Both the position numbers and the translations under genes were made by a program. A DNA stretch of 64,000 bases from Escherichia coli (GTDB lineage: Bacteria > Pseudomonadota > Gammaproteobacteria > Enterobacterales > Enterobacteriaceae). This document shows positions 1 through 708 of this stretch, in pieces (position 1 is the first letter of the stretch; each line of letters begins with the position of its first letter). The notes beneath the pieces were generated by a model. The model was not told the DNA's origin, made no database searches, and saw only the letters and a list, made by a program, of their open reading frames with translations. The DNA is taken from NCBI RefSeq assembly GCF_003334385.1, contig NZ_QOWN01000022.1, one strand, 5' to 3'.

Positions 1-84
1 TTATCGTGAGAGTAATTCATCGGCACGTTAAATCATATCAGGCGTAATACCACAACCCTTAAGTTAGCGCTTATGGGCGCTTTT

Positions 85-124
85 CCCCTCACCCTAACCC
101 TCTCCCCAGAGGGGCGAGGGGACC
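85..124. repeat. REP-like imperfect palindromic unit (ccctctcccc-aga-ggggcgaggg stem-loop)
   Basis: Inverted repeat 98-107/111-120 read directly; C/G-rich palindromic unit typical of enterobacterial intergenic repeats; related copy in opposite orientation at 275-307. Confidence 0.4.
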
Positions 125-274
125 GTATTGTGCAAATATTGTTACCCCAGCAACAAACAGGCTCATACAGCCCCTAACCCTTTCATGGCGATGGCTGGGA
201 CGGTTCAGACCTTGCCGAATATTCTCCAGCACCGTCTCCATGTTTTCACCACAACAGCTATTCGGCTCGGTCTG

Positions 275-307
275 CCCCCTCGCTCTTTCAGGGAGAGGGT
301 GACCGGC
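275..307. repeat. second REP-like palindromic unit, overlapping the last codons and stop of ycjD
   Basis: ccccctcgctctttcagggagagggtgacc resembles the reverse complement of the unit at 85-124; ycjD stop codon (288-290) lies inside it. Confidence 0.35.
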
Positions 308-641
308 GGTTCAGTTCCTGCAGAATATTCTCCAGCACCGTCTCCTCATTACAATCAATCTCGTTATTCCAGAAACGCAGCACGGTCCAGCCCTGCGACT
401 CAAGCCAGCTAGTGCGCCTGGAATCATAGGCAACTGCTAAATCATGCTGCCCACCATCCAGCTCAACGACTACACGCGCCGAGCAGCAAGCAAAATCGAG
501 AATGTAGCTCCCCACTGGATGTTGACGGCGAAATTTGAAATCACTAAAACGTCGGCTGCGAAGATATCGCCAGAGCTTTCGTTCCTGCAAAGTGAGATTG
601 CGTCTTAAATCACGCGCATTTGATTTAATTTTATCTATCAC
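288..641 (-). CDS. ycjD: DUF559 / Vsr-like endonuclease-domain protein
   Basis: 117-aa ORF; position immediately downstream of sapF matches E. coli synteny; protein text recognised. Confidence 0.8.
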   Translation of the reverse strand: MIDKIKSNARDLRRNLTLQERKLWRYLRSRRFSDFKFRRQHPVGSYILDFACCSARVVVELDGGQHDLAVAYDSRRTSWLESQGWTVLRFWNNEIDCNEETVLENILQELNRRSPSP

Positions 642-708
642 CTCATTCTGACAAGATTTAATCTTTTGTCAGAATGAGGTGAATAATCTGGAAGGAGGAT
701 TCAGAAAA

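What the first reader, a model, noticed from the sequence alone, without database searches (positions are those of the whole stretch)
85..346. The C-terminus and stop codon of ycjD are supplied by a REP-like palindromic unit inside a 39-bp imperfect duplication
Two related C/G-rich palindromic units lie in opposite orientation at 85-124 and 275-307. The last residues of ycjD (…RRSPSP) and its TGA (288-290) are encoded inside the second unit. A 39-bp segment is present twice in direct orientation (202-240 ggttcagaccttgccgaatattctccagcaccgtctcc, and 308-346 ggttcagttcctgcagaatattctccagcaccgtctcc, 35/39 identical), the second copy being ycjD coding sequence. This looks like a duplication or repeat-insertion event that remodelled the 3' end of the gene.
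Basis: seen in the sequence. Interest (0 to 1): 0.42.

Follow-up and report, generated by a model that had tools for sequence, protein, structure and literature searches.

The report
BoxC repeat forms ycjD gene end
The last codons and stop codon of the E. coli nuclease-like gene ycjD are written inside a BoxC (TMECO) repeat, and the same small gene sits next to such repeats in many distant bacteria, which points to a possible protein partner for a repeat family that has had no known function since the 1990s.

Summary
A 39-nt direct repeat (201-239 / 307-345, 35/39) and two inverted G+C-rich units are present, and ycjD's SPSP-stop lies in the second unit.

The units are not REPs. They are BoxC / PIT / TMECO elements, and unit 1 is TMECO #9 of MG1655.

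The remodelling idea is not supported. Related YcjD proteins in other enterobacteria nearly all end in a TMECO-encoded PSPxPSP-stop, and Escherichia alleles without the duplication have the same tail. In K-12 the gene's TMECO lost one block through a 12-bp in-frame deletion.

The 39-nt repeat is the best-kept core of a 106-133-bp partial duplication of the last ~17 codons plus their TMECO. That event left a decaying orphan 3' end at 171-241. Short gene conversion inflated the identity in K-12, and recombination between the copies has twice produced fused 147-148-aa alleles.

Unexpectedly, YcjD-like DUF559 genes in Proteobacteria, Cyanobacteria and Deinococcus are bracketed by lineage-specific TMECO-like elements: 88 of 112 elements fall in 9% of the sequence (P~6e-69). 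This geometry resembles REP/RAYT and I found no report of it. A functional nuclease-repeat link is inferred, not shown.

The parts
1..74 (-). Right end of an IS186/IS421 copy (transposase ATG at 18-20). This is context, not part of the feature; it is inserted about 10 bp from unit 1.
   Evidence: K-12 matches the window only from base 75 onward, and K-12 reads GGGGGGG-CGCTTTT-CCCC at the insertion site.
85..120 (-). Unit 1: a complete BoxC/PIT/TMECO element, type A with one stem mismatch. The - strand reads CCCTCGCCCCTCTGGGGAGAGGGTTAGGGTGAGGGG.
   Evidence: Identical in sequence and position to TMECO #9 of MG1655 (1,351,204-1,351,239) in Table 1 of PMC4666352. Pattern hits; fold.
121..170 (-). 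Spacer between the orphan and unit 1. It holds a weak terminator-like hairpin (159-173, - strand). It is collinear with the spacer that follows the gene's own TMECO in alleles without the duplication.
171..200 (-). Decayed TMECO of the orphan copy. In K-12 it carries a 13-bp deletion and point changes. It is longer in L004 and L094 and intact in L006.
   Evidence: Allele alignment and sequences. The L004 orphan still reads ...NIRQGLNHHSLSPQPSP-stop in one frame.
201..241 (-). It encodes METVLENIRQGLNR...
242..273 (-). Junction 'filler' of the duplication; origin unresolved.
   Evidence: No significant similarity to the coding sequence of the ycjD family. A 23-nt, 78% inverted match to the orphan (I2).
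275..303 (-). Unit 2: a truncated TMECO that forms the 3' end of ycjD. Hairpin CCCTCGCTC / TTTCA / GGGAGAGGG. The third block was lost through a 12-bp in-frame deletion. The stop codon is the complement of 288-290.
   Evidence: The full element CCCTCGCCCTTTCAGGGAGAGGGTTGGGGTGAGGGT is present in L003, L004, L005 and L006.
288..641 (-). The ycjD coding sequence, 117 aa: a DUF559 protein of the Vsr-like PD-(D/E)xK nuclease fold.
   Evidence: NCBIfam PRK09767 equivalog, 268 bits. Pfam PF04480 and PF18741. PDB 3HRL, E 4e-34.
307..345 (-). Copy B: ycjD codons ...EETVLENILQELNR, the counterpart of copy A within the gene.
638..704 (-). Conserved 5' leader of the ycjD unit. hp2 (638-654 / 666-682) is a perfect 17-bp stem that encloses the Shine-Dalgarno sequence and the GTG start. 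hp1 lies at 688-704.
   Evidence: I3. The leader is conserved in three different enterobacterial gene contexts. 79% of cells are paired, against 34-50% when the partners are slid.

Best explanation
Bases 85-346 are the 3' boundary of a conserved unit made of a ycjD gene and BoxC/TMECO repeats.

Shown:
- The two palindromic units are BoxC/PIT/TMECO elements (C-block, loop, G-block, 3 nt, G-block).
- In this protein family the C-rich strand of one element is the sense strand of the gene's end: CCC TCA CCC CNN CCC TCT CCC TGA gives PSP-x-PSP-stop.
- A second element in the opposite orientation lies downstream (unit 1).
- This design is ancestral in Enterobacteriaceae.

History of the window's arrangement, inferred from allele comparison:
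1. Before E. coli split from a divergent Escherichia lineage, a 106-133-bp partial duplication copied the last ~17 codons plus their TMECO. It left an orphan 3' end downstream (171-241) and did not change the protein.
2. Slippage between the two C-blocks then deleted 12 bp in frame from the gene's TMECO, turning SPSPQPSP into SPSP. A 13-bp deletion and point changes degraded the orphan's TMECO.
3. In the K-12 lineage, short gene-conversion tracts homogenised 25 nt of the two copies. This gives the 35/39 identity and the K-12-specific residues T101 and N105.
4. Unequal recombination between the copies recurrently deletes the 106 bp between them, producing fused 147-148-aa alleles.

These steps are what the published TMECO-associated instability predicts.

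Inferred, with roughly 0.4-0.5 confidence on its own: the gene and the repeats are functionally coupled. YcjD-type nucleases would recognise TMECO DNA, in a way comparable to RAYT and REP, because homologs across phyla are bracketed by inverted, lineage-matched TMECO-like elements.
For: Identity of the units: the pattern and Table 1 of PMC4666352 and the pattern searches.

The tail is ancestral:
- Protein alignment and C-termini.
- 20 of 22 enterobacterial loci have a C-oriented TMECO at the stop and a G-oriented one 10-130 nt further on.
- The gene sits in at least three unrelated contexts: sapF-fabI, hemW-yggN and next to cysP.
- The solved homolog 3HRL ends before the tail, so the tail lies outside the fold.

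Duplication, deletions and fusions:
- The alignment of 13 Escherichia alleles.
- The no-duplication alleles L003 and L005.
- The fused alleles L088 and L090, which arose on two different backgrounds.
- The 12-nt length difference was noted independently in PMC12817139.

Gene conversion:
- K-12 gene versus orphan is 0.86 identical, against about 0.76 in the other lineages.
- Both copies carry TCGC in L006 and CCG in E. coli.

Coupling:
- An independent generic detector on 56 non-enterobacterial loci finds an element upstream in 38, downstream in 37 and on both sides in 31.
- 88 of 112 elements lie in 9% of the sequence, P~6e-69. Only 7 of 157 other ORFs have an element near their stop.
- Flanking pairs within a locus are more alike than pairs from different loci, 0.87 against 0.78.
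- The pattern recurs in a sample drawn with a tail-less query: Azospirillum, Sphingomonas, Picosynechococcus, Pseudanabaena, Deinococcus, Neisseria. It also recurs in two of the five contigs from the viral collection that carry a good homolog.
- E. coli phylogroups with ycjD hold 13-30 TMECOs, and those without it hold 0-13.
Against: - The 32-nt junction of the duplication (242-273) has no identifiable source, so the event was not a clean tandem duplication.
- Alleles without the orphan could be secondary losses through recombination between the copies. The polarity therefore rests on the other enterobacterial genera, which serve as outgroups.
- The general signal for concerted evolution is weak: within-strain identity 0.776 against 0.762 between strains. 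It rests on a few diagnostic sites.

Against functional coupling:
- No biochemical data exist.
- E. coli of phylogroup B2 and O157 lack ycjD but keep 1-2 and about 11 TMECOs.
- K. oxytoca has the gene but only 1-2 TMECOs.
- The phylogroup correlation is confounded by descent.
- 18 of 56 loci show no upstream element.
- Enterobacteria carry hairpins upstream instead of a TMECO.
- The one DUF559 protein with genetic data, Caulobacter VsrA, is interpreted as a mismatch-repair nuclease.
Confidence: 0.8

Rival explanations
1. One reading: a REP-like unit inserted, or a duplication occurred, inside ycjD and supplied a new C-terminus and stop codon. The ancestral C-terminus would have continued through the 202-240 copy.
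For: The stop codon lies in the unit, and a second copy of the last codons lies downstream. Some E. coli alleles do read through copy A (P0004 and P0012).
Against: Alleles without the duplication, and homologs in other genera, have the same TMECO-encoded tail. The alleles that read through copy A lack exactly the 106 bp and end in a frame with no homolog, so they are derived deletions. They arose twice on different backgrounds. The units are not REPs.
Confidence: 0.05
2. Coincidence or passive co-location. TMECOs tend to settle in permissive spots just past gene ends, and ycjD happens to run into one. The link across phyla would reflect shared junk-DNA niches rather than any tie to the gene.
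For: Holder et al. found no functional class among TMECO-flanking genes and no promoter or terminator activity. Several TMECO-bearing E. coli lack ycjD.
Against: 88 of 112 elements lie within 220 nt of DUF559 gene ends, against 9% expected. Only 4.5% of the other ORFs in the same loci have one near their stop. Elements occur on both sides as matched inverted pairs. The reading frame and junction are constant across enterobacterial genera in three different gene contexts.
Confidence: 0.05
3. The flanking TMECOs are cis-acting expression signals for a potentially toxic nuclease gene, such as insulators, 3' mRNA stabilisers or terminators. The protein does not act on them.
For: The elements bracket the gene tightly and overlap the stop codon. 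A leader hairpin sequesters the Shine-Dalgarno sequence and start codon in enterobacteria. REPs are known 3' stabilisers (general knowledge).
Against: PIT/TMECO elements showed no promoter or terminator activity in published assays. This model does not explain why the same elements are dispersed in tens to more than 100 copies, often as inverted doublets. It also does not explain why element sequence is conserved from Deltaproteobacteria to Enterobacteriaceae.
Confidence: 0.2
4. The inverted units 85-120 and 275-303 are the arms of a programmed inversion that switches the C-terminus of YcjD.
For: 'DUF559 domain-containing protein' is 14-fold enriched among predicted gene-altering programmed inversions. 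The two units are in opposite orientation, with one inside the coding sequence.
Against: All 13 aligned Escherichia alleles are collinear. Every sampled genome matches the region in a single piece, except one interrupted by an IS1 insertion (H31). The arms are only 25 nt and 80% matched in K-12. No invertase gene lies nearby.
Confidence: 0.04

Closest known systems
BoxC / PIT / TMECO repeats of E. coli (Bergler 1992 and Bachellier 1990s as cited; Hoyne/Maher 2000; Holder et al. 2015, PMC4666352)
   Same: Unit 1 is TMECO #9 of MG1655, base for base. Unit 2 is the same element minus one block. The local indels, duplication and deletions match the published TMECO-associated instability, including deletions that keep a hairpin.
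   Different: The paper states that TMECOs are always intergenic and found no associated gene or function. Here one element supplies 4-7 codons plus the stop codon of a gene, and the gene family is linked to such elements across phyla.
REP/BIME elements with RAYT (REP-associated tyrosine transposase); REPIN-RAYT systems
   Same: A short, dispersed, hairpin-forming repeat that often occurs as inverted doublets. A small gene sits in one conserved context in every contig sampled, is conserved in position within a genus, and is bracketed by inverted copies of the genome's own repeat variant.
   Different: The repeat has a third block and lacks the GTAG/CGTC head and the REP consensus. The protein is a Vsr-like PD-(D/E)xK nuclease (DUF559), not an HUH Y1 transposase. 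No activity on the repeats has been shown. In Enterobacteriaceae both elements lie downstream of the gene.
Vsr and solitary Vsr-like DUF559 nucleases (E. coli Vsr; N. gonorrhoeae 3HRL; Caulobacter VsrA, PMC12907096)
   Same: YcjD matches the DUF559 profile and 3HRL over residues 15-112. The D, E-x-D and H positions are invariant in the family alignment.
   Different: No cytosine methyltransferase partner lies nearby. The TMECO-encoded tail and the flanking repeats are not part of any description of Vsr-like proteins that I found.
Homing endonucleases of the Vsr-like fold (I-Bth0305I type, PDB 3R3P; placed in the same clade as DUF559 in PMC3424549)
   Same: A small free-standing nuclease gene of the same structural clade, found in several unrelated chromosomal contexts.
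   Different: No intron or intein context. No empty or occupied target site has been demonstrated, and copies are old (78-83% identity between paralogs within one genome).
Rickettsia palindromic elements, and REPs that overlap gene ends (own knowledge, not tested here)
   Same: Palindromic repeats that contribute codons to open reading frames.
   Different: Those are scattered insertions into many unrelated genes. Here one gene family carries the element at the same codon position in many genera.

Membership tests
BoxC / PIT / TMECO | Sequence pattern CCCTCNCCC N3-6 GGGNGAGGG N3 GGGNGAGGG (at most one stem mismatch) | tested here: met
   Unit 1 (85-120, - strand) fits the pattern and equals TMECO #9 in Table 1 of PMC4666352. 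Unit 2 fits in alleles L003, L004, L005 and L006.
BoxC / PIT / TMECO | All three blocks present (triplex-capable) | tested here: not met
   Unit 2 in the window and in K-12 lacks the third block because of a 12-bp deletion, and its C-block reads CCCTCGCTC. The pattern search does not find it. It is a degenerate member.
BoxC / PIT / TMECO | Intergenic location ('always located intergenically', PMC4666352) | tested here: not met
   Unit 2 overlaps ycjD codons 114-117 and the stop codon. The same holds for 20 of 22 enterobacterial homolog loci.
REP / BIME (PU) | REP consensus (…CTTATCMGGCCTAC tail, GTAG/CGTC head) | tested here: not met
   The tail consensus with up to 2 mismatches hits five other sites in the window and none in 85-124 or 275-307.
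DUF559 / Vsr-like PD-(D/E)xK nuclease | Profile match and conserved acidic and His positions | tested here: met
   NCBIfam PRK09767 equivalog, 268 bits against a cut-off of 218. PF04480 and PF18741. PDB 3HRL, E 4e-34. D49, E60, D62 and H66 are invariant.
REPIN-RAYT-like system | Gene bracketed by inverted copies of a repeat that is dispersed in the same genome | tested here: met
   31 of 56 non-enterobacterial loci have elements on both sides, and matched pairs reach up to 97% identity. Dispersal in E. coli, Enterobacter, Azospirillum and others comes from Table S1 of PMC4666352. In the window itself both elements lie downstream of the gene.
REPIN-RAYT-like system | Encoded protein is an HUH Y1 transposase | tested here: not met
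   The protein is DUF559 / PD-(D/E)xK.
REPIN-RAYT-like system | Protein binds, cleaves or mobilises the repeat | not testable with these tools
   Requires biochemistry or genetics.
Anti-phage defence systems (PADLOC) | Match to a defence-protein model | tested here: not met
   0 families at E<=0.01.

The most novel reading that the evidence does not exclude
YcjD-family DUF559 nucleases are the cognate proteins of BoxC/PIT/TMECO repeats. This would be a second, independently evolved repeat-plus-resident-enzyme partnership like REP/RAYT, built on a Vsr-like PD-(D/E)xK nuclease that recognises the hairpin or triplex element. ycjD would be the E. coli master locus, and TMECO doublets would be non-autonomous derivatives of the gene-bearing unit, or its homing sites.
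Probability: 0.4. Interest if true: 0.85.

Novelty: new variant of a known kind. Interest (0 to 1): 0.62.

Why it matters
BoxC/PIT/TMECO elements were described in the early 1990s (in the envM/fabI paper, by my recollection). They form stable triplexes in vitro and mark unstable loci, but they have had no known function, origin or associated protein.

A small nuclease-like gene ends inside such an element in enterobacteria and is bracketed by matched elements in several phyla. That makes the question directly testable: YcjD binding and cleavage assays, ycjD deletion strains, and comparative genomics.

It also bears on four smaller points:
- It explains why YcjD has at least six C-terminal forms in E. 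coli.
- It re-reads the '12-nt insertion' reported for ST69 and ST182 as a deletion in phylogroups A, B1 and C.
- It probably accounts for the enrichment of DUF559 among predicted programmed inversions.
- It warns that the 'PSPRPSP'-type tails in this family are repeat-derived.

Tried and rejected
- Rfam scan of 1-1000 at a permissive threshold: only noise hits on the leader hairpin.
- RNAalifold on the 5' leaders gave no consensus structure. I tested the structure by explicit pair counting instead.
- I tested whether the duplication junction (242-273) is diverged ycjD coding sequence or comes from an Enterobacter-type allele. Local alignments against 19 homologs with shuffles gave nothing significant after multiple testing.
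- I looked for a second orphan next to the K-12 TMECO doublet #10/#11, whose type-B member closely resembles ycjD's element. None was found.
- Programmed inversion between the two units: all alleles are collinear.
- Plasmid or phage carriage: only 19 of 72,556 plasmid records, mostly chromids or mislabelled chromosomes, and 5 good hits in 2.9 million viral contigs. The unit is therefore not a typical plasmid or phage passenger.
- Multiple copies in TMECO-rich Enterobacter: every contig carrying the E. asburiae protein shows one conserved context.
- A general within-strain versus between-strain test for concerted evolution was only marginal, 0.776 against 0.762. The conversion claim therefore rests on specific sites.
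- PADLOC defence models: no match.
- Possible ascertainment bias from the SPSP tail in the query. I checked it using the 12 loci whose match stopped at or before residue 110, of which 11 have an element. I also repeated the test with a tail-less query.
Full report
**Where we are.** The window is E. coli. Bases 75-720 are 100% identical to K-12 strains. The order on the - strand is sapD, sapF (709-1515), ycjD (288-641), then the fabI upstream region. Bases 1-74 are the end of an IS186/IS421 copy. Only one of 5,426 complete genomes, strain 4/2-1, has it at this place.

**Checking the observation.** The direct repeat is real: 201-239 and 307-345, 39 nt, 90% identical, spacing 106. The two G+C-rich units are real and inverted: arms 97-121 / 276-300, 80% complementary. 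Each folds into a hairpin of -20 to -26 kcal/mol. YcjD ends ...NRRSPSP. SPSP and the TGA are the complement of 288-302, which is the loop and 3' arm of unit 2.

**What the units are.**
- They are not REPs. The REP tail consensus hits five other sites in the window but neither unit.
- They fit the BoxC = PIT = TMECO pattern CCCTCNCCC-N3-6-GGGNGAGGG-N3-GGGNGAGGG of Holder et al. 2015 (PMC4666352).
- Unit 1 is listed in Table 1 of that paper as TMECO #9 of MG1655 (1,351,204-1,351,239, type 'A mm'), base for base.
- That paper reports that TMECOs form triplexes in vitro, are 'always located intergenically', have no known function, and mark unusually variable loci.
- Unit 2 in K-12 is a truncated member. 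Other Escherichia alleles carry the full element CCCTCGCCCTTTCAGGGAGAGGGTTGGGGTGAGGGT at this place and encode ...R(R/L)SPSPQPSP-stop. K-12-like alleles lack 12 bp, which is one block plus its 3-nt linker, and this keeps the frame and the stop codon.
- The EefABC study noticed the same 12-nt length difference and called it an insertion in ST69 and ST182 (PMC12817139). Comparison with the outgroups shows it is a deletion in the majority lineage.

**The repeat-encoded tail is ancestral, not a remodelling.**
- Of the 120 best database homologs, 67 carry PSPxPSP, nearly always as residues 114-120 of 120. These include Kluyvera, Enterobacter, Klebsiella, Lelliottia, Leclercia, Phytobacter, Scandinavium and Franconibacter.
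- At the DNA level, 20 of 22 enterobacterial loci read CCC TCA CCC CGG CCC TCT CCC TGA/TAA. This is the C-rich strand of a type-B TMECO, with the stop codon in the hairpin loop. A type-A TMECO in the opposite orientation follows 10-130 nt later.
- These loci fall in at least three unrelated gene contexts: sapF-fabI in Escherichia; yggT-rdgB-hemW / yggN-yggL-trmB-mutY in Enterobacter, Leclercia and Phytobacter; and next to cysP/cysUW in Klebsiella and Kluyvera.
- A conserved 5' leader with two hairpins travels with the gene.
- The solved homolog 3HRL aligns to profile positions 15-112 only. The TMECO-encoded residues are therefore a tail outside the nuclease fold, which explains why losing PSPQ is tolerated.

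**What the 39-bp repeat is.** I aligned 13 Escherichia alleles from the GWTVLR codons to fabI.
- Two alleles have no duplication: L003, a rare E. coli allele 85% identical to K-12, and L005, Escherichia sp. E1V33. Their TMECO is followed directly by the spacer that, in the window, follows the orphan.
- All other alleles carry an extra 106 bp (K-12 type) or 133 bp (L004, L094, L006). It consists of a 32-nt junction, about 17 codons of ycjD 3' end, and a second TMECO.
- In L006 the orphan TMECO is intact. In L004 the orphan still reads NIRQGLNHHSLSPQPSP-stop in one frame. In K-12 it has lost 13 bp and is barely recognisable (171-200).
- The duplication therefore copied the gene end together with its TMECO and did not alter the protein.
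- The junction (242-273) has no detectable source. It shows short inverted and direct matches to neighbouring sequence (I2), which hints at template switching.

**Why K-12 shows 35/39.** The ancestral gene sequence is GAG GCG GTG CTG GAG ATT ATT (EAVLEII), seen in L004, L005, L006 and L092. The family consensus is also EEAVLE. K-12 and L091 have ACG and AAT (T101, N105), which are the orphan's bases. The K-12 and L092 orphans in turn carry the gene's GGTGCTGGAG where L004 and L006 have GGATGATGAAG. K-12 thus has a 25-nt identical tract, where other lineages have about 10 nt. Gene-orphan identity is 0.86 in K-12 and about 0.76 elsewhere. In L006 both copies have ...TCGC where both E. coli copies have ...CCG. 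I read this as short-tract gene conversion in both directions. This is an inference, and the global within-strain excess is small (0.776 against 0.762).

**Consequences of the repeat.** Two assemblies have lost exactly the 106 bp between the copies. L090 did so on a K-12-type background and L088 on an L092-type background. The result is 148- and 147-aa proteins that run through the orphan and end inside unit 1 (...GPLAPLGRGLG). These are two independent unequal recombinations. Other database forms read through the gene's TMECO to the orphan's stop (159-160 aa), or carry further deletions, as in the S. dysenteriae 158-aa form. The 12-bp deletion itself occurs in two versions, retaining CCCTCTCCC or CCCTCACCC. 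All of this fits the published TMECO-associated instability.

**Population picture.** 3,378 of 5,426 complete E. coli genomes carry this region. About 3,190 are at least 95% identical to the window, about 180 are the L004 type and 6 are the L003 type. In most of the rest, an 8-kb eefRABCD-type efflux island lies between fabI and sapF and ycjD is absent, as described in PMC12817139. No TMECO is present there, but a hairpin homologous to the ycjD leader hairpin hp2 remains beside the sapF stop.

**The wider and unexpected result.** I looked at the 56 non-enterobacterial loci returned for the YcjD alignment: Beta-, Gamma-, Alpha- and Deltaproteobacteria, Nitrospira and others.
- Many genes again end in or next to TMECO-like elements, in various frames and orientations. 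Examples are Gallionella ...PLPQAGEGLG-stop, with the TGA inside the last GGGTGAGGG block, and xanthomonads ...LSPTPLPEGEGL-stop.
- I then used a detector that does not assume the E. coli sequence: a C-rich 9-mer, a loop, its complement, 2-4 nt, and a repeat of the G-block. With it, 38 of 56 loci have an element within 200 nt upstream of the start, 37 of 56 within 200 nt after the domain end, and 31 of 56 have both. Usually the pair is inverted.
- 88 of 112 elements lie in the 9% of sequence next to the gene (binomial P~6e-69). Only 7 of 157 other ORFs of at least 150 aa in the same loci have one near their stop.
- The two flanking elements of a gene are near-identical inverted copies of a lineage-specific variant. 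Within-locus identity is 0.87 and between-locus identity 0.78, and some pairs reach 94-97%.
- Ascertainment through the SPSP tail does not explain this. 11 of the 12 loci whose match stopped at or before residue 110 have elements.
- A tail-less query against the plasmid collection gave the same picture in Azospirillum, Sphingomonas, Deinococcus and Neisseria. It also did so in two cyanobacteria, with short-block variants read by eye, for example Pseudanabaena CCCCCC-TAG-CCCCCC-AATTCT-GGGGGG across the stop codon.
- Two of the five good hits in the viral contig collection also show flanking pairs.
- The gene sits in one conserved context in every contig sampled and is conserved in position within genera. 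It is rare on plasmids and phages.
- TMECO counts in E. coli are 13-30 in the phylogroups that have ycjD and 0-13 in those that lack it. This contrast is confounded by phylogeny.

**Interpretation.** The geometry is that of REP/RAYT systems: a small resident gene bracketed by inverted copies of a dispersed, doublet-forming, hairpin repeat. The enzyme class differs, however. It is a Vsr-like PD-(D/E)xK nuclease rather than an HUH transposase.
- I found no report of this link. The papers that mention DUF559 or ycjD, and the one paper that uses the term TMECO for these repeats, do not make it.
- The 14-fold enrichment of DUF559 among predicted programmed inversions (PMC9881135) is probably an indirect trace of the inverted pairs.
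- Whether YcjD acts on TMECO DNA is not shown. Counter-indications are TMECOs in ycjD-less strains, a gene-bearing K. oxytoca with only 1-2 TMECOs, and the mismatch-repair reading of Caulobacter VsrA.

**Verdict.** The 'REP' label and the 'remodelled 3' end' interpretation are not supported. The local structure is a BoxC/TMECO-built gene end with an orphan duplicate, shaped by slippage, conversion and unequal recombination. The lasting interest is the cross-phylum coupling of YcjD-type genes with TMECO-like repeats.

Noticed in passing
window 1-84: An IS186/IS421 copy ends at about base 74, roughly 10 bp from TMECO #9. It sits at the K-12 sequence GGGGGGG-CGCTTTT-CCCC, which is a G-run/C-run target of the kind IS186 is known to prefer (own knowledge), about 160 bp upstream of the fabI start. 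Only one of 5,426 complete E. coli genomes has this insertion.
   Followed up: partly
window 638-704: Two hairpins lie upstream of ycjD. hp2 is a perfect 17-bp stem that encloses the Shine-Dalgarno sequence and the GTG start. Both are conserved with the gene in three different enterobacterial contexts: 79% of cells are paired, against 34-50% when the partners are slid. Rfam has no family for them.
   Followed up: partly
L087 8039-8085 (E. coli BEN2908): In a strain that has eefRABCD and lacks ycjD, a hairpin homologous to hp2 (CACCTCATCCTGA...TCAGGATGAGGTG) survives between the eef island and the sapF stop. This suggests the island replaced a ycjD unit rather than the reverse. PMC12817139 proposes the opposite direction.
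   Followed up: partly
L101 1995-2691 (N. gonorrhoeae): An array of triple-block elements with a 281-nt period lies 150-850 nt downstream of the DUF559 gene, whose protein is the solved structure 3HRL or a close relative of it.
   Followed up: no
L007, L013, L018, L027 (Enterobacter, Pluralibacter, Leclercia), 0-350 nt after the DUF559 stop: Tandemly repeated hairpin units lie between the gene's TMECO and the downstream inverted TMECO. This is another form of local instability at the same place.
   Followed up: no
window 159-173 (- strand): A weak terminator-like hairpin followed by a T-rich run lies directly after the orphan TMECO. In alleles without the duplication it directly follows the gene's own TMECO, so it may be the real ycjD terminator.
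   Followed up: no
L118-L120 (Logan assemblies of Enterobacter): Three of the five loci shown, all short-read Logan contigs, break within a few bases of the DUF559 stop, that is inside the TMECO. This is what one expects of a repeat dispersed through those genomes.
   Followed up: no
window 73-177 (+ strand): A spurious 34-aa ORF (MGAFPLTLTLSPEGRGD...) is generated by TMECO #9. Peptides of the 'LTLTLSPxGRG' and 'PSPRPSP' type in databases are likely translations of these repeats.
   Followed up: no
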